From an uncultured Candidatus Saccharibacteria bacterium (GTDB lineage Bacteria > Patescibacteriota > Dojkabacteria > GCA-002793355): a stretch of DNA of 64,000 bases. Below, piece after piece: positions 26,148 to 38,935 of this stretch (position 1 is the stretch's first letter; every line of letters starts with the position of its first letter). The translations under genes were made by a program, and so were the position numbers. The notes under the pieces are model-generated. The model had not been told where the DNA came from and ran no database searches. It was given only the letters and a program-made list of their open reading frames with translations. The DNA is taken from positions 572,314 through 636,313 of the forward strand of contig CAZGEO010000001.1 in assembly GCA_964525295.1 (NCBI GenBank). Reading direction: 5' to 3'.

Positions 26148-26569
26148 GGGGGTGACCGGCTTAGACGGTTGTTCATTGAAAGAAGTAGCCAAGCGGGCTG
26201 ATATCCCGTAAATCTATCAAAGCACCATAAAGTGCCAAGTCAAACCTTTCTGAGAAAGTCGCAGCTTTTTTGAACTCAGCAGTTAAGGCTTTTGCCTCAG
26301 TTGTTGCAGCTCCAAAGCTTGCAGTCTCACTCGTCTCTTAATGACGTAACTGGTTTCTCCTCCTTTGCATAACAAGCGGGAAACCAGGAGTAATAAGGTT
26401 TATGCCGACACGCTATCAAGCTCCGCTGGGGTAGAGTGTTGTACATGTGCGGGCGAGTATTCCTTTTTTGCTCGATTTTCAGGGGATACTTAGTACTCAA
26501 CTCGAGCTGTCTTGGGAGAGACTTCTTTTTAAGAAGAGCTGCACAGGGGTTCGATTCCCCTCACCTCCA
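26148..26569 (+). ncRNA. ssrA: tmRNA (transfer-messenger RNA)
   Basis: 5' GGGGGUGA pairs with 3' UCACCUCC to give a 7-bp acceptor stem with a G3:U wobble (tRNA-Ala identity), followed by a discriminator A. T-arm AGGGGUUCGAUUCCCCU. 5' GGCUUAGACGG resembles the GGAUUCGACGG box. Internal frame ...AAAGUC GCA GCU... is followed by UAAUGA stops and a CUGGUUUC/GAAACCAG helix. Confidence 0.65.
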
Positions 26570-27325
26570 TTTTTTCAACACTCTCGTTCGCTACAAAAAA
26601 GAAACCAGTTCTTTTTTGTTACGCTCACGATCCGTGTAGAAGAAAATGGAGCGAACGGGAGGGGTGAAAAATAGGAAAATGTTGGGGAAGCGAAACGCAA
26701 GCGAGAATGTACTGACGTACATTCGAACGAAGCGGGGGTCGAGGAGCGGAAAATTTTCTAGCGAAGCGACGGAAATGACCGCGAGGTGACCGATTCCCCT
26801 GACTTTTGAAAACGCTTCGAAAGAGTTTTTTATGACGTCGGCGACCATTACCCATTCGGGCAAAAAGAGGCTTTTCAAAACGATAATGTTCGATGCTATC
26901 GCCTGAAAGTATAACCTTATCGTTTACTGTGAATGGTAAAGAATCTTCTTGTGTTGCACTACTATCAAGCGAAGTAGTGCAGTCAGAAGCGCGAGCGCGT
27001 AGGGGCTCGCGCTCTTCTTCCTGCAAGCCATGAGAAACAATCGACTGTCTCTTTCCTTTTATTCTTGAGGAATTTGAGTCACTCGAAATTTTGCCCATAA
27101 GTAGTGTGCCTACACGAGTAGATCCAATGGATCATTTCTAATGTAGGGTGCCTAACCTTGAAGGCGGCTACTTACGGTCTGACAGTTCTTTTGAACAGCG
27201 TGATCTTTTTGTTAACTTGTTTTCTCTGGCATCATCACTCCTACCAGCAGAAGGCGCATTCGGCCTTGGGCCTTTATATATTACCCTGTTAAATTGTAAG
27301 CGATAAAATAATTTAGAATAGAGTA

Positions 27326-28399
27326 CTACACCCCAGTCATAACCTTGAATTTATAACGTGGTCTTAGCGGAGTAATGAAACTCCATTGAACGTGGTCTTC
27401 TTTTGCCAATCTTCCTGCAACTATTGAATGTGCTATTTGAATTTTATTCGCGAATTCTTTGATCGAAGCCAATGAGAAGATTCCTGATTGAATAAACTGT
27501 TCGTACATATCAGAGGGTATTAGTGTGTTTTTCGCAAATTCGTTGGCTTCTAATTCATGGGTTTGAGTATCATCCTGACTGATTTCATCAATAAAGTTTT
27601 TATTTTTGTCATGAATTATCAAGTGGCCCAACTCGTGAAAGAGTGTGAACCAGAATATATCTTCAGTGCAGTTACGCAATGATAAAATAATTACTGGTGT
27701 CTCATTTTGTATCCAAATCAATGCACCGTTAACAGGGGATCTCGGAATATTCGGCAACCCAATTAAAACTACACCCGCCTTTTTTAGAATTTCTTTTACT
27801 TGTTTATAGACTACTGTGATAGGCTGCTGTGATAGTTTTTTTATCTCATCGAGAGAGCGAGTTAACAAGGTTTTGTTGTATCTGTATTCTGGTAATGATT
27901 TGAGTGCAGCAATTTCTCCCTGTCTTAACCAAGCTTGCGTTTCAGGGATTGAAGCCTTAAGTTTATCTGCAATTCTGAATTCGATTGCTACATCCCTATC
28001 TATTACTGTTTTAAGTGAATTAACTGCGAAGAAATTCAGTAGGTTCCTAACTTTGGTTACTTGATTAATAGTTTTCTCTACCCAACCAAAGTTTGCCATA
28101 TCTTTATAAAAGGAAAAATGAGGAAGATATTTCTTTTCATCTAAAACATGGTTAAGGTCTTCTTCAATAGCAAGCGCGTGCTGATAATTGCTCTCAAGAT
28201 TAATCCAAAAGTCGGATGAGATTTCGAATATTCTAGATAGACGTATTGCAGTCTCGGGAGTAATAGATGCTTTCTCATTAATAATCATGTTCAGTTGCTT
28301 TCTGCTCAGACCAATACGTGCAGCGAGTTCAACCTGTGATAATCCATAAGCTATCATCGTTTCTTCAAGGATTGTCCCTGGATGTGTGATGTTGTTCAT
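27326..28399 (-). CDS. HigA-type HTH antitoxin fused to ImmA/IrrE (COG2856, DUF955) Zn-metallopeptidase domain
   Basis: N-terminal HPGTILEE...GLSQVELAARIGLSRKQLNMIINEKASITPETAIRLSRIFEISSDFWINLESNY matches the HigA/VapI HTH. C-terminal HEXXH (FHELGHLIIHD) in a DUF955 context. Confidence 0.7.
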   Translation of the reverse strand: MNNITHPGTILEETMIAYGLSQVELAARIGLSRKQLNMIINEKASITPETAIRLSRIFEISSDFWINLESNYQHALAIEEDLNHVLDEKKYLPHFSFYKDMANFGWVEKTINQVTKVRNLLNFFAVNSLKTVIDRDVAIEFRIADKLKASIPETQAWLRQGEIAALKSLPEYRYNKTLLTRSLDEIKKLSQQPITVVYKQVKEILKKAGVVLIGLPNIPRSPVNGALIWIQNETPVIILSLRNCTEDIFWFTLFHELGHLIIHDKNKNFIDEISQDDTQTHELEANEFAKNTLIPSDMYEQFIQSGIFSLASIKEFANKIQIAHSIVAGRLAKEDHVQWSFITPLRPRYKFKVMTGV

Positions 28400-32271: not shown

Positions 32272-32296
32272 ATTGATAATTAACAATTAATTTCAC
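32272..32296. repeat. 25-nt element ATTGATAATTAACAATTAATTTCAC abutting a stop codon (identical copy at 53051..53075)
   Basis: Exact 25/25 identity between two unrelated gene 3' ends; member of a wider AT-rich AATTGAAAATT / TTAATAATTAA motif family. Confidence 0.6.
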
Positions 32297-32871
32297 CTCC
32301 TCTTCTCCGTTGCCAAATTCTTGGCCCAGTCATTAACCTTGGTGTGGTAAACGGTAAGGGCGAGTTTTTTACCATATTCCGTCAAATACGTTTGGTTAAT
32401 CCAATCCTCATTATTTTCGAGCCATTCTTTCGCTTGTTGGTTGTTGTAAGTGAAAACTTGCTCTTGCAACAATATCATCTGAGCCATTCTATCGGCATCT
32501 TTAACACATTTTGCCTCTAACGATTCACGTTTCCCATACTCTTCAAGTAGCGTCTTGATATTTAGGTGATCTAATTCTTCTGGGAACATTTCAGCAATTG
32601 CCTCCTCTTCGTATGCTTTGACGTATCTTTTGTTAATCCAGGCAATATCACCTGTCCTGGTTTCTGCCGTGTCGTGCGACATTGCCATTAAAAGAACCTT
32701 TTCGATATTTGCGCCCTCGTGCTTTGCAATAATGTAAGCAATCCAGGTTACTAAGTAAGAATGAGTCGCAAGATTGTCGCTTAGGTCGTCGAGTAATAAA
32801 ACAGGGCGGTGGTTTCGAACTATCTTTCGCATTGTTGAAAGTTCAAACAAGAGGTTTGCTTCTTTTTTCAT
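32293..32871 (-). CDS. HD-domain 5'-deoxynucleotidase (YfbR-like)
   Basis: HSYLV...H...MSHDTAETRTGDI...DADR pattern of YfbR-type HD phosphohydrolases. Confidence 0.65.
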   Translation of the reverse strand: MKKEANLLFELSTMRKIVRNHRPVLLLDDLSDNLATHSYLVTWIAYIIAKHEGANIEKVLLMAMSHDTAETRTGDIAWINKRYVKAYEEEAIAEMFPEELDHLNIKTLLEEYGKRESLEAKCVKDADRMAQMILLQEQVFTYNNQQAKEWLENNEDWINQTYLTEYGKKLALTVYHTKVNDWAKNLATEKRR

Positions 32872-32908
32872 AGTTGCTGATTATATAACGTTACTCAATT
32901 GGTGCCCA

Positions 32909-33466
32909 TTATACTTCTAGCAATTTCTTTACCGGTGGGTATACATTCGAGGTGAAAAGTTTTAATGCCTGCTTTTTTGTCACCCATCTTACTTCGACAT
33001 TCTCTTCGTCATCGGCAAGATATGGTTCACCGTGAAGATAATCACATAACCAATATGAAATAATTGCCTTAGTGTCTGGATGAATACGCTTTCCAATGGA
33101 TTTAACGGCCTTGCAATGAACACCAGTTTCTTCTAAACATTCAATTTCTGCACGAGTAGAGGAGCGTTCTTTGTATTTGATCCTTCCTGCGGGGAATTGC
33201 CAAGATAGTGAACCTTCTCGGACTCTTCGATGGAGAACGAGAACTTTATCGTTGTGCATAATAATTGCTACGGCAATTTTTAGTGGCTGCGTGCTTTCGG
33301 TTGATTTGTTAAGGTATTCGGTTAAGGCAGCGTGAGTGACAAGAAAATTCTTGCCTATTCTTATGGTCTTCAGTTCCCCTTTCGATATCTTTGAGAGTAT
33401 GGTGCGGTAGTTGAGATTTAACGCCGATGCTACTTGTTTTGGGGTATAAATTTCCGCTTTCTGCAT
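32909..33466 (-). CDS. Excisionase/MerR-type HTH / NUDIX hydrolase fusion protein
   Basis: N-terminal HTH_17-like (YTPKQVASALNLNYRTILSKISKGELKTIRIGKNFLVTHAALTEYL). Nudix box GRIKYKERSSTRAEIECLEETGV, with REx2EE degenerated to IEx2EE. Confidence 0.65.
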   Translation of the reverse strand: MQKAEIYTPKQVASALNLNYRTILSKISKGELKTIRIGKNFLVTHAALTEYLNKSTESTQPLKIAVAIIMHNDKVLVLHRRVREGSLSWQFPAGRIKYKERSSTRAEIECLEETGVHCKAVKSIGKRIHPDTKAIISYWLCDYLHGEPYLADDEENVEVRWVTKKQALKLFTSNVYPPVKKLLEV

Positions 33467-33544
33467 ATACCATTATATCACGGAGTGTATTTTAGTGTAT
33501 ATAGGTGATGTGTTATTTGTGGTCAGACATTGCTATAATCCTTC

Positions 33545-34096
33545 ATGAACAAATACTGGTATTTCGATATAATTCATAAATATATAAAACCCGGCACACA
33601 GGTGTATCCTTTTTATATAATTCACGTGAATTTAGTAACTGCAAAGGCATTGGCGATAGCGCAGAAATTGAATTTATCTGCAGAAAGTCTACAGTTTATT
33701 GAAGAGGCCTCAATGCTGCACGACATCGGTATTTGTGGAGTAGAAGATGAAGATTTTGGCACAACTGGCGGTCCATACATAACGCACGGAATTCTAGGCT
33801 CTGAAATTCTTCGGAAAGAAGGGTATCCTAAACATGCAAAAGTCGCAGAAAATCATACCGGGGTAGGTCTGTATAAAGATCAAATAGTAGAGAGAAATTT
33901 ACCTCTTCCACATAAAGATTTTGTACCCGAAAATTTGGAAGAAAGAATAATAAGCTATGCAGATCTTTTTTATTCGAAAGTGACTGAAATCCTTTGGCAA
34001 GAGCAATCTTTTGAAAAGATTCGTGCTGGAGTTGGCAAGTACGGACAGAAATATAGCGACATCCTAGAAGCGTGGATTAAAGAGTTCGAGTCATAA
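33545..34096 (+). CDS. HD-domain phosphohydrolase
   Basis: H...HD (ASMLHDIG) ...H...D spacing of the HD superfamily. Confidence 0.6.
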   Translation: MNKYWYFDIIHKYIKPGTQVYPFYIIHVNLVTAKALAIAQKLNLSAESLQFIEEASMLHDIGICGVEDEDFGTTGGPYITHGILGSEILRKEGYPKHAKVAENHTGVGLYKDQIVERNLPLPHKDFVPENLEERIISYADLFYSKVTEILWQEQSFEKIRAGVGKYGQKYSDILEAWIKEFES

Positions 34097-34119: not shown

Positions 34120-34596
34120 ATGATCACCATGCGAATAGCAAATATATCGGATATTCCGGCGGTGCAGAAATTGCATGCCGAACTCTTTACGTATGAAGAT
34201 GCGTTTTTGAAATTGTATAACAATAACTATGACGAATCGGCAGCGAGCACAAAATATTTCAAAAGCAGAATAAATCCAGAAAATGGGCGGATATTTCTTG
34301 CTGAAGAAGGCGGTAAAGTCGTTGGTTATTTGTGTGCAGGCAAAGGCGTAGAAGAGTACCGAGAGGTGCCGAGATATGCAGAAATCGAAAGTTTGTTCGT
34401 TGTGGAAAATTGTAGAGGCCAAAACGTCGGTAAATTGCTAATAAATGCCTTTAAGGAGTGGGCAAGAGCAGAAGGAATAAATCGCCTAAAAGTTGAAGTC
34501 GTGCACTCGAATGTTCGTTCATTGGCTTTTTACCAAAGGGAAGGTTTTTTACCAACATATTTGGAGCTCGAATCAATTGAAATTACGAGCCAGTAA
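34120..34596 (+). CDS. GNAT family N-acetyltransferase
   Basis: Acetyl-CoA motif A NCRGQNVGKLLINAF. Confidence 0.75.
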   Translation: MITMRIANISDIPAVQKLHAELFTYEDAFLKLYNNNYDESAASTKYFKSRINPENGRIFLAEEGGKVVGYLCAGKGVEEYREVPRYAEIESLFVVENCRGQNVGKLLINAFKEWARAEGINRLKVEVVHSNVRSLAFYQREGFLPTYLELESIEITSQ

Positions 34597-34620
34597 TTAA
34601 AAATCAATGCAAGTATCTTG

Positions 34621-35427
34621 TTACCAAACATCACCCTGTTTGTATATTTTCTGATGAACCTTTTTTGCAGGATCATATATCCAATAACCCTCACGGTTAT
34701 CTTTGTTGAATAGGTCCATTTGAATTCCCATTTCTTTGCAGTATTCCTCGTTGTCGGTACATCCAAATGGTCTGTGGTTGATGTTGTAAAGCAAAATTTC
34801 ATTTTGTGACGATGATCCGGGGAGTATCGCTGAAAGTGATATTTCGGTAATTGTTGATTTCCCCGATGAGATTGTTTCTAAATTATCAATGTTGGGGAAG
34901 TTGGCCTTATAGACATTGCCTAGTTCTTTGTCGAAAAGAACTATCTCGTGTTGAGTTTTCCCCTGCTTCTGATAAGTTAAGATTGCATAAGCAATATCGT
35001 CGATTTTCACATCGATCTTTTCGATTACTCTAATGACGCGCTCCTTAAAATTGATTGTGCAGGGTTTATCATTGTTATTGTAATTAGTAATTGAAATTTC
35101 GAATTTTTGTTCGGAATTGTTGCTTAGGAGATAATTCTGCTCTGAAGTTGAAAATGTATAGCGAGAAGTATCCATATTAGATTGATTGTAAAATTCCGAA
35201 ACAATTGCTTCTGAGCATCGTGGATTTTCTTGTGACGCCGAAGTAGTTATACTTGGAATTAAGGTGGGATTTGTTGAAGTCTTTTGCGAATAGTCGAATG
35301 CGGTGCGACCCGCAATATTGTTATTTACAAACACTGCGGCCATTACTATGAAAATAATGATTAAAACAAATTCAACGAGCGCAATGCTTGTTGCATTGCT
35401 TGAGAGAAATTTCTTAATTTGATTCAT
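34621..35427 (-). CDS. Hypothetical membrane-anchored protein
   Basis: N-terminal TM (IALVEFVLIIIFIVMAAVFV), then a soluble Cys-containing domain. The N-terminus is only weakly pilin-like. Confidence 0.4.
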   Translation of the reverse strand: MNQIKKFLSSNATSIALVEFVLIIIFIVMAAVFVNNNIAGRTAFDYSQKTSTNPTLIPSITTSASQENPRCSEAIVSEFYNQSNMDTSRYTFSTSEQNYLLSNNSEQKFEISITNYNNNDKPCTINFKERVIRVIEKIDVKIDDIAYAILTYQKQGKTQHEIVLFDKELGNVYKANFPNIDNLETISSGKSTITEISLSAILPGSSSQNEILLYNINHRPFGCTDNEEYCKEMGIQMDLFNKDNREGYWIYDPAKKVHQKIYKQGDVW

Positions 35428-35466
35428 TGGTCATTATACGTTTTTTCAAGAAGAAAGTAACGTATT

Positions 35467-35976
35467 ATGGAGAAATTTTGGTATTACTATTATAATTGCT
35501 TCATGACACTAACAATTCGCCGCGCATCGGCCTCAGATATTCCGTCGCTTAGGCAGCTTGGTTATGAGCTTCAAGAAAATGAGCGATTATTGTGTCCTGA
35601 CCGTGCTCCGGCAGCGGAAATTGTCGATCAATACAATGCAATCACGCAGAGAGTGGTAGCGTCGGGAGAATGGGTAATTTTTGTCGCGCTTGATGGCGAC
35701 CAATTCGTTGGATATACCGCAGGTGCAATGAATGACCCCGAAGATGATTTGATTAATTTGGCACCAGGATTCCATGTTGACGATATAGTCGTTGCCAAAT
35801 CGCATCGTGGGCAGGGAATTGGTCGTCAGTTGCTTGATGCAATAGGTGAATATGCGAAAGAGCAAGGTGCGAAAAGTATCGAACTAAATGTGTTATCGGC
35901 GAATGTTGAGGCTCAAGCCTTTTACCGAAAGGTGGGCTTTCAAGATTATGAGTTGGTACTGAAGAAGAAGCTGTAG
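35467..35976 (+). CDS. GNAT family N-acetyltransferase
   Basis: VAKSHRGQGIGRQLL motif A. Alternative start at 35503 (MTLTIRR) is possible. Confidence 0.7.
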   Translation: MEKFWYYYYNCFMTLTIRRASASDIPSLRQLGYELQENERLLCPDRAPAAEIVDQYNAITQRVVASGEWVIFVALDGDQFVGYTAGAMNDPEDDLINLAPGFHVDDIVVAKSHRGQGIGRQLLDAIGEYAKEQGAKSIELNVLSANVEAQAFYRKVGFQDYELVLKKKL

Positions 35977-36015
35977 AAGAGTATAAAATTTGTAGTAAAT
36001 CTTCCAATTTTTCGA

Positions 36016-36615
36016 TTATTTGCCAGGCATTCTCTGATATTTTGAGCCAGCAAAGGTTATTCCTTTGCCTGTTACTTTAAAAAGCTCCCGGTCATTATCT
36101 CCATCGCCAATACAGTAGATATCAGTAATTTGTGTGTTGTTTTTCTCGCAATAATCTGTTAGTTGCATTACCTTTGCATTGTAATCATTTGCTACGGTTT
36201 TTATGTCACTAAGGTAATCATTTTCATCAAAAACAAAGTGGTTGTTGGCATACCAGTTTGAGATGCCAAGATCCTTAGCAACGTGTTCAACTAACAAATC
36301 CATAGAGCCACTAATCAAAAGTAGTTTGTGACCACGTGACAGCAATTGACTAATCACTTTTTGAGCCCCTTCAAGGTAGGTGTAGTTAAATAAGGTTTGT
36401 AGGATTGTTTGCTTTGTGTGTCTTCCGGAACTTTTATAAATTCTCAATATAATTTGTTGACCAGCTGCATCACTGATAATACCGCGCTTTCCCCAATCCA
36501 TTAGTATATTATCTTCCTGTTCTGTGACGCCAAGAGCAAGATTAAGATTAAGCCAGGCATTTTCTTTGATAAGTGTTTTGTTGAGGTCAAAGCAGATTGT
36601 CTTTGGAGCGTTCAT
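36016..36615 (-). CDS. HAD-superfamily hydrolase (subfamily IB-like phosphatase)
   Basis: Motif I variant CFDLNKTL near the N-terminus, motif IV GDGDND near the C-terminus. Confidence 0.6.
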   Translation of the reverse strand: MNAPKTICFDLNKTLIKENAWLNLNLALGVTEQEDNILMDWGKRGIISDAAGQQIILRIYKSSGRHTKQTILQTLFNYTYLEGAQKVISQLLSRGHKLLLISGSMDLLVEHVAKDLGISNWYANNHFVFDENDYLSDIKTVANDYNAKVMQLTDYCEKNNTQITDIYCIGDGDNDRELFKVTGKGITFAGSKYQRMPGK

Positions 36616-36627
36616 GAGTATATTATA

Positions 36628-37338
36628 CTAGTACTCCAGTTTCTCTTCATCAGGCTCAGTAATGTATGGCGTAAAAGCTGTAGGATTCGCAAGAAATTCT
36701 TTGATATGTGGCAAGCCTGTTTCAAATCCTTTTCTAAAAATTTTATCGAGTTCAAAGATTTTGTCGATATCGTGCCAAAAGTATTCACCTTCAATATTTT
36801 GTGAATTTGGCGAACCTTCCCATTTTGTTACAAATATGACAAAAAATACTCCATCACCGACTATTTCGCCGGTTTCATTTCTGATGATCTCACGATGAAT
36901 TCCTGCTACTTTGAATTCTGTTGGCACAATAGCTAGTTCTTCTTGTAATTCTCTTCGCATGTTATGTTCTAGTGATTCGCCCCATTTAAGCTTGCCAGTA
37001 ACGGCGCCAATGTAATCATAATGTGGATGCTTTTTTCTTCTGAACAGTAACATTTGCCAATTGCCCTCGTGATATCGCAATAAATCGATAAACATGCTGA
37101 CTTTGAACTGTTTTTGATACTGTCCATCTTCTTCCATCAGCGACACTTGTTGCCTACCTTCTGAAGAAAGTGAGTAGGAGCTGCCATTTTTTAAGATGAG
37201 CCCTTTCGCCACTAATTCTCTTAAATGATAATTGAATAAATCATGATTTCCGCTAGCTTTGTGTAATTCGCCATAGGTTAAACTCGGTGAAAACATAAGT
37301 TTGTTGAGTATTATTTTCCTTGTTTCTGCTTCTGTCAT
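36628..37338 (-). CDS. Winged-HTH / NUDIX hydrolase fusion protein (paralog of 8369..9085)
   Basis: LFNYHLRELVAKGLILK wHTH and Nudix box GKLKWGESLEHNMRRELQEELAI. Same architecture and length as the other copy, though the sequence has diverged. Confidence 0.7.
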   Translation of the reverse strand: MTEAETRKIILNKLMFSPSLTYGELHKASGNHDLFNYHLRELVAKGLILKNGSSYSLSSEGRQQVSLMEEDGQYQKQFKVSMFIDLLRYHEGNWQMLLFRRKKHPHYDYIGAVTGKLKWGESLEHNMRRELQEELAIVPTEFKVAGIHREIIRNETGEIVGDGVFFVIFVTKWEGSPNSQNIEGEYFWHDIDKIFELDKIFRKGFETGLPHIKEFLANPTAFTPYITEPDEEKLEY

Positions 37339-38264: not shown

Positions 38265-38301
38265 CTGTACTATTGACAGTAGTACGCGTGTCGTGTACTA
38301 T
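38265..38301 (+). promoter_or_regulatory. lexA promoter (TTGACA-N17-TACTAT) with candidate LexA operator dyad GTACTA-N7-TAGTAC overlapping -35
   Basis: Direct reading: TTGACA at 38273-38278, TACTAT at 38296-38301; inverted repeat arms at 38267-38272 and 38280-38285 (also parsable as CTGT-N7-ACAG). Confidence 0.45.
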
Positions 38302-38329: not shown

Positions 38330-38935
38330 ATGGAACCACTACACAAGGCGCAGCAGCTACTTTTAGAATTACTTGCAAAAAATGCTCAAGACCCGTTGAC
38401 AATTCGTGAATTGCAAAACAGAATAGGTGCTTCATCACCAAGTGTTGTTACTCACCATTTAAAGCAATTGCAGAAAAAAGGGTATTTAACTAGAGATCCG
38501 CACGATCCTCGCACGTATATTGTGCATGAAAAAACTGAATTACTTGGTGATATTGTCAGTTTGCCACTTTATGGTATGGCTCAATGTGGTCCTAACGGTA
38601 GTTTGCTTGATGGTGCACCAGTTGAATATGTACCAATTTCTAGGCAATTGTTAGGAACGTATTACGATAATTCATTTATGGTTAAAGCACGTGGTGATTC
38701 AATGGAACCACAAATTAAAGAAGGCGATCTTGTTATTGCAGTCAAGCGAAATCTGGCTCAATCGGGAGACATTGTTGTATGTGTTAATCATGAAAAAGTA
38801 CTTATTAAAAAATATGTCGAAAGTGAGAATATGGTACTGCTTCTTTCACTTAATCAGAATTATGATCCAATAATTCCTGCTGAAGACTTTCGCATCGAAG
38901 GGGTAGTGAAATCGGTATATTCGTATCAGCGTTAG
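38330..38935 (+). CDS. lexA: LexA repressor (S24 peptidase family)
   Basis: N-terminal wHTH (LTIRELQNRIGASSPSVVTHHLKQLQKKGYL). C-terminal S24 catalytic motifs GDSMEP and the Lys region (VLIKKYV). Confidence 0.85.
   Translation: MEPLHKAQQLLLELLAKNAQDPLTIRELQNRIGASSPSVVTHHLKQLQKKGYLTRDPHDPRTYIVHEKTELLGDIVSLPLYGMAQCGPNGSLLDGAPVEYVPISRQLLGTYYDNSFMVKARGDSMEPQIKEGDLVIAVKRNLAQSGDIVVCVNHEKVLIKKYVESENMVLLLSLNQNYDPIIPAEDFRIEGVVKSVYSYQR

What the first reader, a model, noticed from the sequence alone, without database searches (positions are those of the whole stretch)
32293..34096. Xis-type HTH-NUDIX fusion co-transcribed with a YfbR-like HD nucleotidase, flanked by a second HD hydrolase
A 185-aa protein joins an excisionase/MerR-like HTH to a NUDIX domain. 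The NUDIX domain has a slightly degenerate Nudix box (IE instead of RE). It sits 37 nt upstream of, and on the same strand as, an HD 5'-deoxynucleotidase-like gene. A further HD-domain gene is divergent. NUDIX hydrolysis yields an NMP-type product that an HD/HAD nucleotidase can dephosphorylate. An HTH on the NUDIX suggests a ligand-sensing transcription factor like NrtR, but with reversed domain order (HTH N-terminal). The wider 31.6-36.6 kb stretch is a run of small housecleaning enzymes (HD, HD, NUDIX, GNAT x2, HAD).
Basis: partly seen in the sequence, partly recalled or inferred. Interest (0 to 1): 0.55.

Follow-up and report, generated by a model that had tools for sequence, protein, structure and literature searches.

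The report
Rare DNA-binding NUDIX fusion, unlinked neighbours
A small bacterium carries a rare gene that joins a DNA-binding domain to a nucleotide-hydrolase domain and probably acts as a self-contained nucleotide-responsive switch, but its proposed partnership with the neighbouring HD phosphatase genes is not conserved and is probably coincidental.

Summary
The gene at 32909-33466(-) encodes a 185-aa HTH_17 (Xis/MerR-type winged helix) + NUDIX fusion with an IE-for-RE Nudix box. A YfbR-like HD gene lies 37 nt downstream and a second HD gene is divergent.

The operon/pathway reading does not hold.
- None of 8 independent lineages of the fusion has an adjacent HD gene.
- HD orthologues at 82% and 59% identity sit next to unrelated genes.
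- In this SD-less genome, 39% of gene starts have a TATAAT box 5-8 nt upstream, which suggests leaderless transcripts. The HD gene has its own such box inside the 37-nt spacer.

The "NrtR-like sensor" idea is plausible.
- Catalytic glutamates are lost in 5 of 9 lineages, while pocket residues stay invariant.
- The same NUDIX clade forms 135 actinobacterial cassettes: an HTH plus degenerate NUDIX, followed by a canonical NUDIX.
- TACAC repeats recur at the promoters of the fusion gene in several lineages.

My best reading is an autonomous, accessory, nucleotide-responsive autoregulator that may still hydrolyse its ligand. The ligand is unknown and nothing has been tested biochemically. It is a new variant of a known kind, of moderate-to-low interest.

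The parts
32909..33466 (-). HTH_17-NUDIX fusion gene (185 aa, stop codon included)
   Evidence: ORF. Pfam HTH_17 at 30.0 bits and NUDIX at 55.1 bits. TIGR01764 at 34.7 bits. AF2 model with pLDDT 88.1.
33302..33454 (-). Winged HTH domain, residues 5-55 (strand, helix, helix, two-strand wing, helix). Y20-R21-T22 in the second helix is invariant.
   Evidence: Secondary structure. Foldseek best matches are BldC, NmlR and Xis proteins, TM 0.63-0.74. The best PDB sequence hit is Pukovnik Xis 4j2n, E=0.005.
32912..33280 (-). MutT-like NUDIX domain, residues 63-185
   Evidence: Pfam and NCBIfam hits. Foldseek matches to NUDIX structures at E about 1e-9. Clade signature WQFPxG, GxRxHPxT, Y138, W161.
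33119..33187 (-). Nudix box, residues 94-116, with R108 replaced by I. E100, E109, E112 and E113 are present.
   Evidence: Sequence. Family alignment and residue tables.
33472..33477 (-). TATAAT box 5 nt upstream of the ATG, read as a leaderless-type promoter. A TATACA -35-like hexamer lies at 33496-33501.
   Evidence: Promoter scan. The genome-wide pattern is 22 of 56 gene starts against a 2.3% background, P about 1e-21.
33484..33500 (-). Candidate operator: two ATACACT direct repeats 10 bp apart, lying between the -10 box and the -35-like hexamer and overlapping the latter
   Evidence: This is the only TACACT pair within 30 bp in the 64-kb window. TACAC pairs recur upstream of homologues in L006, L007 and L008, with one copy in L011. 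No other upstream region of the window has two copies. Inferred, not shown.
32293..32871 (-). Neighbour HD1: HD_3/YfbR-like phosphohydrolase with an H...HDxxE...D motif. Adjacent, but not shown to be functionally linked.
   Evidence: Pfam. The NCBIfam 5'-deoxynucleotidase equivalog scores 35.6 bits against a cut-off of 122. Orthologue contexts lack the fusion gene.
32880..32885 (-). TATAAT box of HD1 inside the 37-nt spacer, 8 nt before its ATG
   Evidence: The 82% orthologue in L161 has TATAAT 6 nt before its ATG, behind an unrelated 788-aa gene.
33545..34096 (+). Neighbour HD2: divergent HD/HDIG-type protein with its own TATAAT at 33534-33539. It shares the 78-bp intergenic region with the fusion gene.
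   Evidence: Pfam HD at 33.2 bits. TIGR00295 at 61 bits, below its cut-off of 172. Promoter. Found next to the fusion gene only in the 98% strain.

Best explanation
The gene encodes an autonomous one-component protein.

Proposed mechanism:
- The N-terminal Xis/MerR-type winged HTH binds short TACAC-containing repeats at the gene's own leaderless promoter. This would give autorepression and could also affect the divergent HD2 promoter.
- The C-terminal MutT-like NUDIX domain binds a nucleoside-phosphate ligand.
- Ligand occupancy changes DNA binding, so expression tracks the level of that nucleotide.
- In the window protein all four catalytic glutamates remain and only R108 is replaced by I. 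It probably still hydrolyses the ligand slowly, like a 'trigger enzyme'. In several sister lineages the domain is probably a non-catalytic sensor.

The gene is an accessory, frequently relocated unit. Its adjacency to the two HD genes is a species-level accident of a plastic region full of small hydrolases, not an operon or pathway.

Shown here: the domain identities and folds, the family-wide residue pattern, the lack of conserved neighbours, and the separate promoter-like boxes.

Inferred: DNA binding at the TACAC repeats, ligand-dependent regulation, and residual catalysis. The ligand is unknown.
For: 1. The HTH is real. It passes the profile cut-offs. The AF2 topology and the fold matches to DNA-bound BldC, NmlR and excisionases agree.
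2. Among 9 lineages of the fusion, E109 and/or E112 (and E100 in one) are replaced in 5 (P0004, P0006, P0012, P0018, P0034). R108 is kept in only one. Meanwhile WQFPxG, G125, R127, P130, T132, Y138, N156 and W161 are invariant.
3. The same NUDIX clade (about 40% identity) forms 135 two-gene loci. An HTH-bearing NUDIX with a degenerate box (E100 kept in 12/123, E112 in 1/123) is followed by a stand-alone NUDIX that is fully canonical in 125/125. Other members of the clade carry Xre-type, AbiEi-type and other HTHs at the N-terminus.
4. The window promoter holds two ATACACT repeats 10 bp apart. TACAC occurs twice upstream of 3 of the 7 other lineages and once in a fourth. Among the window's other 54 upstream regions, none has two copies and 7 have one. 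BldC-type wHTH proteins are known to bind direct repeats (PMC5859096).
5. Neighbours differ in every lineage: HIT, IS200 transposase, sigma factor, RHH plus methyltransferase-like, reverse transcriptase, AbiE. The unit is therefore self-contained.
Against: - No experiment supports any step.
- The operator motif is short, was picked from the window itself, and is AT-rich and promoter-like.
- In two lineages the repeats form GTAC-N8-GTAC palindromes that resemble the one at the window's lexA promoter, so they may be LexA boxes instead.
- The window protein keeps E100, E109, E112 and E113, so it may simply be an enzyme.
- E112 is variable across the whole clade (48% E), so its loss is weaker evidence for loss of catalysis than loss of E109.
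- The family is small: 11 sequences, about 9 lineages.
- Oligomeric state and interdomain communication are unknown. The linker has low pLDDT.
Confidence: 0.45

Rival explanations
1. The HTH-NUDIX and the downstream YfbR-like HD nucleotidase form a co-transcribed two-step pathway (NDP-X/NTP to NMP to nucleoside). The HTH-NUDIX regulates it, and the second HD, the GNATs and the HAD belong to one housecleaning module.
For: Same strand, a 37-nt gap and no predicted terminator between the genes. The chemistry is plausible. A second fusion, wHTH-NUDIX at 36628-37338, is likewise followed after 12 nt by a HAD phosphatase. In the P0002/P0003 lineage the divergent neighbour is another nucleotide hydrolase, a HIT protein.
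Against: HD adjacency is seen only in the 98%-identical strain and is absent in 8 other lineages. HD1 orthologues at 82% and 59% identity sit beside unrelated genes. HD1 has its own TATAAT 8 nt before its ATG, and its 82% orthologue keeps such a box (6 nt before its ATG), in a genome without SD sites where 39% of gene starts show this leaderless signature. The wHTH-NUDIX/HAD adjacency is also absent in the 2 relatives examined.
Confidence: 0.1
2. A plain MutT-like housecleaning hydrolase. The HTH only tethers the enzyme to DNA or gives simple ligand-independent autorepression, and the NUDIX domain has no sensing role.
For: The window protein retains E100, E109, E112 and E113. Its best NCBIfam and PDB sequence relatives are MutT, YmfB/NudJ, DR1025 and Ap4A hydrolase. 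JGI names homologues '8-oxo-dGTP diphosphatase'.
Against: Scores are far below every equivalog cut-off, for example MutT at 39 bits against 148. R108 is lost in nearly all members and the general-base position E109 in three lineages. This is hard to reconcile with selection for catalysis across the family. From my recollection of the MutT sequence, the residue aligned with MutT N119 (in FPPAN) is K/R here.
Confidence: 0.2
3. A component of a biological-conflict system (defence, counter-defence or mobile element). The NUDIX domain senses or destroys an immune nucleotide signal or depletes a nucleotide pool, under control of a mobile-element-type Xis-like HTH.
For: The nearest NUDIX relatives are fused to TIR (11-18 of 150 representatives), HD-CE (8), EAD11, DprA/SLOG-like, trypsin-like, deaminase, kinase and AbiEi domains. 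The NUDIX domain hits PADLOC candidate PDC-S07 at 43.9 bits. Neighbours in other lineages include AbiEi/AbiEii, a reverse transcriptase, an IS200 transposase and an RHH/NikA-like protein. Seventy IMG/VR contigs carry clade members.
Against: There is no match in 50,697 deposited phage genomes. The window shows no integrase, att repeat or composition shift. No known defence gene lies beside it in the window. PDC-S07 is, to my knowledge, an unvalidated candidate. The fused relatives are only about 40% identical, and about half of the clade are plain stand-alone NUDIX proteins.
Confidence: 0.12

Closest known systems
NrtR (Nudix-related transcriptional regulator of NAD metabolism; PMC2330246)
   Same: One polypeptide joins a NUDIX-fold effector domain to a winged-helix DNA-binding domain. 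The Nudix signature tends to degenerate, consistent with sensing rather than catalysis. An autoregulatory logic is proposed.
   Different: NrtR has the Nudix domain at the N-terminus and the HTH at the C-terminus; here the order is reversed. The HTH class differs (Xis/MerR-type HTH_17). The NUDIX clade is MutT-like rather than ADP-ribose-pyrophosphatase-like. No NAD genes are nearby. There is no sequence-level family match.
MutT/NudG-type small NTP pyrophosphohydrolases
   Same: NUDIX fold, the WxFPGG motif, a C-terminal (F/Y)PP motif and a domain of about 125 aa. These are the best sequence relatives in NCBIfam and the PDB.
   Different: Scores are far below the equivalog cut-offs. R of the RE pair is replaced by I/K. 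An HTH is fused at the N-terminus. The clade has its own GxRxHPxT/Y/C/W signature.
BldC and phage/ICE excisionases (Pukovnik Xis, RdfS, GIsul2 Xis): minimal MerR-like winged HTH proteins
   Same: These are the best structural matches of the N-terminal domain, at TM 0.63-0.74. BldC binds direct repeats as cooperative multimers (PMC5859096). This fits the direct ATACACT repeats at the promoter.
   Different: Those proteins are stand-alone domains of about 55-70 aa with no ligand-binding or enzymatic domain. No recombinase is nearby here.
Actinobacterial two-gene cassette found here: an HTH-bearing NUDIX with a degenerate box, followed by a canonical stand-alone NUDIX (for example L095 4749-5387 and 5384-5800)
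   Same: Same NUDIX clade (41% identity over 126 aa), an N-terminal HTH, and a degenerate Nudix box.
   Different: The HTH is Xre-like rather than HTH_17. It is always paired with an active-looking NUDIX paralogue. The hosts are high-GC. It is uncharacterised as far as my literature searches show.
YfbR (E. coli HD-domain 5'-deoxynucleotidase), for the neighbouring gene HD1
   Same: Pfam YfbR-like and HD_3 are above their cut-offs, and the H...HDxxE...D metal and catalytic motif is present.
   Different: The NCBIfam equivalog is not reached (35.6 bits against 122). Substrate is unknown.

Membership tests
NUDIX superfamily (PF00293) | NUDIX fold | tested here: met
   Pfam scores 55.1 bits against a cut-off of 21.1. 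The AF2 model matches NudC, YmfB, Ap4A hydrolase and MutT2 at E about 1e-9.
NUDIX superfamily (PF00293) | Complete Nudix box GX5EX7REUXEEXGU | tested here: not met
   R108 is I in the window protein, and I/K/V/N in 10 of 11 family members. The four glutamates are present in the window protein, but E109 or E112 is lost in 5 of 9 lineages.
HTH_17 / excisionase-family DNA-binding domain (PF12728, TIGR01764) | Profile match above the curated cut-off | tested here: met
   30.0 bits against 27, and 34.7 bits against 28.8.
HTH_17 / excisionase-family DNA-binding domain (PF12728, TIGR01764) | MerR/Xis-type winged-helix fold | tested here: met
   The AF2 domain model has pLDDT 83.5. The best PDB matches are BldC, NmlR, Pukovnik Xis, RdfS and GIsul2 Xis, at TM 0.63-0.74 and rmsd 1.3-3.5 A. 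Foldseek E-values are weak (0.03-0.3), likely because the domain is only 60 aa.
HTH_17 / excisionase-family DNA-binding domain (PF12728, TIGR01764) | Sequence-specific DNA binding | not testable with these tools
   Only a candidate operator is available.
NrtR family | N-terminal Nudix-like domain followed by a C-terminal winged HTH | tested here: not met
   The order is reversed: HTH at residues 5-55, NUDIX at 63-185. The NrtR architecture is as stated in PMC2330246.
NrtR family | Linked to NAD-metabolism genes and ADP-ribose as effector | tested here: not met
   No NAD gene was found in the window neighbourhood or in any homologue locus. The effector is not testable here.
MutT 8-oxo-dGTP diphosphatase (NCBIfam equivalogs NF008044, TIGR00586) | Score at or above the equivalog cut-off | tested here: not met
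   39 bits against 148, and 33.2 bits against 97.9.
   None of 8 diverged lineages of the fusion has an adjacent HD gene. Neither of the two HD1 orthologue contexts examined has the fusion.
   No terminator is predicted in the spacer, but HD1 has its own TATAAT 8 nt before its ATG, and the orthologue behind a different gene keeps such a box (6 nt before its ATG). RNA data are needed.
YfbR-like 5'-deoxynucleotidase (for HD1) | Family profile and equivalog score | tested here: inconclusive
   PF12917 scores 32.8 bits against 25.9, which is met. NF003009 scores 35.6 bits against 122, which is not met.
PADLOC candidate defence gene PDC-S07 | Profile match and defence-island context | tested here: inconclusive
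   The NUDIX domain matches at 43.9 bits. No known defence gene lies next to it in the window. AbiE and a reverse transcriptase lie next to homologues in two lineages.

The most novel reading that the evidence does not exclude
The fusion belongs to a distinct MutT-like NUDIX clade that evolution repeatedly uses as a nucleotide-signal sensing or clearing module. The clade is fused to TIR, HD-CE, EAD11, SLOG-like, protease and deaminase effectors, and to Xre, HTH_17 and AbiEi DNA-binding domains. On this reading the HTH_17-NUDIX of this Patescibacteria genome is a minimal stand-alone switch. It detects, and perhaps degrades, an immune or stress nucleotide and turns that signal directly into transcription. 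That would be a new class of one-component conflict or stress regulator.
Probability: 0.12. Interest if true: 0.7.

Novelty: new variant of a known kind. Interest (0 to 1): 0.35.

Why it matters
If the regulator reading is right, this would be a second, independently evolved way of wiring a NUDIX fold to DNA binding, after NrtR/NadQ. The HTH would be N-terminal and of a different class, the NUDIX would be MutT-like, and there may be a continuum from active 'trigger enzyme' to pure sensor within one small family.

It would also give a handle on transcriptional regulation in Patescibacteria, which have few recognisable regulators and, in this genome, mostly leaderless-type promoters.

The wider clade may interest people who work on nucleotide-based immunity. 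This includes the HTH + degenerate-NUDIX / canonical-NUDIX cassettes in Actinobacteria and the fusions to TIR and other conflict-system domains.

On the negative side, the attractive NUDIX-to-HD nucleotidase 'pathway' is not supported and should not be propagated as an annotation.

Tried and rejected
- **Conserved HD pairing: rejected.** Contexts of 8 lineages of the fusion and 2 HD1 orthologues show no pairing.
- **Parallel wHTH-NUDIX2 + HAD pairing as support for a NUDIX-plus-phosphatase theme:** not conserved in the 2 relatives examined.
- **Phage origin.** IMG/VR holds 70 contigs with clade members, but tblastn against 50,697 deposited phage genomes found nothing. BFVD gave only generic NUDIX matches. 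Pfam on one IMG/VR locus showed no phage hallmark genes. I therefore do not call the clade viral.
- **Integrated island next to the tmRNA gene.** I found no att-like repeat of the tmRNA end, no integrase and no GC shift.
- **GTDB species genomes.** The pattern scan returned only two distant NUDIX loci, so the source species was not identified that way. Names attached to homologues point to Patescibacteria / Candidatus Dojkabacteria.
- **A solved two-domain analogue:** none in the PDB by fold or by sequence.
- **The afdb50 fold library** was unavailable.
- **Literature.** Searches for N-terminal HTH-NUDIX, TIR-NUDIX or PDC-S07 descriptions found only NrtR-type regulators and general statements on NUDIX in conflict systems.
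- **Crude ORF calling** in high-GC loci gave antisense artefacts, so I could not establish conserved neighbours of the actinobacterial cassette.
Full report
**1. Observation**

- 32909-33466(-) encodes 185 aa. It scores above curated cut-offs for HTH_17 (30.0 against 27), for the TIGR01764 excisionase-family DNA-binding domain (34.7 against 28.8), and for NUDIX (55.1 against 21.1).
- The Nudix box, residues 94-116, reads GRIKYKERSSTRAEIECLEETGV. It is canonical except that the R of the RE pair is I.
- 32293-32871(-) is an HD_3/YfbR-like protein 37 nt downstream on the same strand.
- 33545-34096(+) is a divergent HD/HDIG protein.
- Two GNATs and a HAD-IB phosphatase follow.

**2. The N-terminal domain is an HTH**

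- AlphaFold2 on the family alignment gives a confident two-domain model (pLDDT 88). It has a strand-helix-helix-wing-helix module at residues 5-55, a low-confidence linker, and a NUDIX fold.
- The isolated domain model (pLDDT 83.5) best matches DNA-bound BldC, the MerR-family NmlR, and the Pukovnik, RdfS and GIsul2 excisionases, at TM 0.63-0.74.
- The best PDB sequence match is Pukovnik Xis, E=0.005.
- No solved protein combines the two domains.

**3. How rare is the fusion, and what is the NUDIX domain**

- A word-indexed search found 6 full-length relatives.
- An exhaustive profile search of 1.84 billion representatives found only four further full-length clusters: P0012, P0018, P0025 and P0034.
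- The NUDIX domain belongs to a large MutT-like clade of about 40% identity. Its signature is R80, WxFPxG, E109, E113-T, GxRxHPxT, Y138, C141 and W161.
- About half of the top 150 representatives are stand-alone proteins of about 130 aa.
- The rest carry the domain C-terminally, often in tandem. Partners are TIR (11-18 members), HD-CE (8), Xre-type HTHs (about 9), HTH_17 (5), EAD11, DprA/SLOG-like, kinase, trypsin-like, deaminase, metallophosphatase, zf-HC2 and AbiEi domains.
- The domain also hits the PADLOC candidate PDC-S07.

**4. The pairing with HD genes is not conserved**

- Only a 98%-identical strain (L001) repeats the arrangement.
- The other lineages have different neighbours:
  - L002/L003/L004: a divergent HIT gene, and an IS200 transposase in L003.
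  - L006: a sigma factor.
  - L007: an RHH/NikA-like protein, a methyltransferase-like protein and a GNAT.
  - L008: a reverse transcriptase.
  - L011: unknown proteins.
  - L014: AbiEi/AbiEii.
  - Sources.
- phmmer with both HD proteins against the ORFs of 160 fetched loci hit only L001.
- The HD1 orthologue at 82% identity (L161) follows an unrelated 788-aa gene. GNAT1 and GNAT2 homologues lie nearby, but there is no fusion gene, HD2 or HAD.
- The 59% orthologue lies between a transglutaminase-like gene and a beta-lactamase gene.
- The region is plastic even between strains. L001 lacks the 268-aa gene and GNAT2.

**5. Co-transcription is doubtful**

- The genome essentially lacks Shine-Dalgarno sites.
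- Of 56 gene starts, 22 have a TATAAT-like box ending 5-8 nt upstream of the start codon. The background is 2.3% (P about 1e-21). This is the signature of leaderless transcripts.
- The fusion gene, HD1, HD2, GNAT1, the 268-aa gene and the HAD each have such a box.
- HD1's box lies inside the 37-nt spacer. Its orthologue in L161 keeps such a box (6 nt before its ATG) behind a different upstream gene.

**6. Evidence for a sensing and regulatory role**

- Within the fusion family the catalytic positions erode.
  - R108 is I/K/V/N in all but one member.
  - E109 is lost in three lineages and E112 in five.
  - One member (P0034) has also lost E100.
  - The putative pocket residues remain invariant.
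- In 135 mostly high-GC loci the same clade forms a two-gene cassette.
  - Gene A has an N-terminal extension of about 88 aa (median), Xre-like in the examples inspected, plus a NUDIX that keeps E100 in 12/123 and E112 in 1/123.
  - Gene B is a stand-alone NUDIX with every box residue canonical in 125/125.
- This paralogue contrast is what a sensor-plus-enzyme pair would look like. It shows that HTH fusion with a degenerate box is a recurrent theme of the clade.
- Caveats:
  - E112 is variable clade-wide (48% E).
  - E109 and E113 stay invariant in gene A.
  - The window protein keeps all four glutamates, so residual activity is likely.

**7. Candidate operator**

- Two ATACACT repeats 10 bp apart (33484-33500) overlap the -35-like hexamer of the fusion gene's promoter. 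They are the only TACACT pair within 30 bp in the window.
- TACAC occurs twice upstream of the homologues in L006, L007 and L008 (inverted) and once in L011.
- Among the window's other 54 upstream regions, two copies never occur and one copy occurs in 7.
- The GTACA class reaches its observed recurrence in 1 of 500 shuffles.
- BldC-type domains bind direct repeats cooperatively (PMC5859096).
- An unresolved alternative exists. Rare GTAC-N7-10-GTAC palindromes lie at the window's lexA promoter and upstream of the L003 and L008 homologues. Those sites may be SOS boxes.

**8. Conflict-system and phage leads**

- Seventy IMG/VR contigs carry clade members. No deposited phage genome does. Plasmid hits are plain NUDIX genes of Streptomyces and Rhizobium.
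- The window shows no integrase, att repeat or GC anomaly, although a tmRNA gene and an HTH_3-Peptidase_M78 (ImmA/IrrE-type) gene lie 5-7 kb away.
- I keep this as a minority reading.

**9. Verdict**

- The fusion is real and rare.
- It is most likely an autonomous nucleotide-responsive autoregulator that may retain hydrolase activity.
- It is not an NrtR member and not part of a conserved NUDIX-HD pathway.
- It is a new variant of the known 'NUDIX-linked regulator' kind.
- Interest is moderate to low until a ligand or DNA site is shown.

Noticed in passing
whole window, e.g. 33472-33477, 32880-32885, 33534-33539, 36622-36627: The genome uses leaderless-type promoters. Of 56 gene starts, 22 have a TATAAT-like box ending 5-8 nt before the start codon, against a 2.3% background (P about 1e-21). 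Shine-Dalgarno motifs are almost absent. This bears on every operon call in this genome.
   Followed up: partly
window 36628-37338 (-), with HAD 36016-36615 (-) 12 nt downstream: A second, unrelated N-terminal winged-helix (DUF7347-like, 24.6 bits, below cut-off) + NUDIX fusion of 236 aa. Unlike the HTH_17 fusion it is well conserved: 35 clusters at 47-66% identity. Some sources name it Candidatus Dojkabacteria, and JGI calls it 'NUDIX/predicted transcriptional regulator'. The HAD adjacency is absent in the 2 relatives examined.
   Followed up: partly
L015, L018, L030, L091, L093, L095, L102, L107 and about 125 other loci (e.g. L095 4749-5387 and 5384-5800): A widespread high-GC (median 68%) two-gene cassette. 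Gene A is an HTH-bearing NUDIX (Xre-like in the examples inspected) with a degenerate Nudix box (E100 kept in 12/123, E112 in 1/123). Gene B follows immediately, with overlapping stop and start in the examples inspected, and is a fully canonical stand-alone NUDIX (125/125). It looks like a sensor/pseudoenzyme plus enzyme pair. I found no description in the papers searched.
   Followed up: partly
proteins P0013-P0050 from the representative search: The same MutT-like NUDIX clade, often as tandem NUDIX, is fused C-terminally to TIR, HD-CE, EAD11, DprA/SLOG-like, alpha/beta-hydrolase, trypsin-like protease, cytidine deaminase, metallophosphatase, kinase and zf-HC2 domains. This is a conflict-system-like pattern of architectures.
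   Followed up: partly
window 38281-38299, upstream of lexA (38330-38935); L003 834-849; L008 1656-1670 and 1729-1744: An AGTAC-N9-GTACT palindrome lies at the lexA promoter, and TGTACTAT occurs twice there. Similar rare GTAC-N8-GTAC palindromes lie upstream of two HTH-NUDIX homologues. This may be the SOS box of this lineage, and some homologues may be SOS-regulated.
   Followed up: partly
window 26148-26572 (+) and 27326-28399 (-): A tmRNA gene (78 bits) lies next to an HTH_3 + Peptidase_M78 (ImmA/IrrE-type) gene and a TPR protein, just upstream of the run of small hydrolases. No att-like repeat or integrase was found, so an island boundary could not be shown.
   Followed up: partly
L001 1-874 versus window 34120-36615: Strain-level indel. 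In the 98%-identical strain the HAD gene directly abuts GNAT1. The 268-aa membrane-anchored gene (34621-35427) and GNAT2 (35467-35976) are absent there.
   Followed up: no
protein P0095 (479 aa): A protein made almost entirely of about seven tandem HTH_17-like domains matched the HTH part of the profile.
   Followed up: no
window 1-64000: No tRNA gene was found in 64 kb. GC skew is positive in all but two of the 2-kb bins and cumulative skew rises almost monotonically, which suggests that the window lies on one replichore.
   Followed up: no
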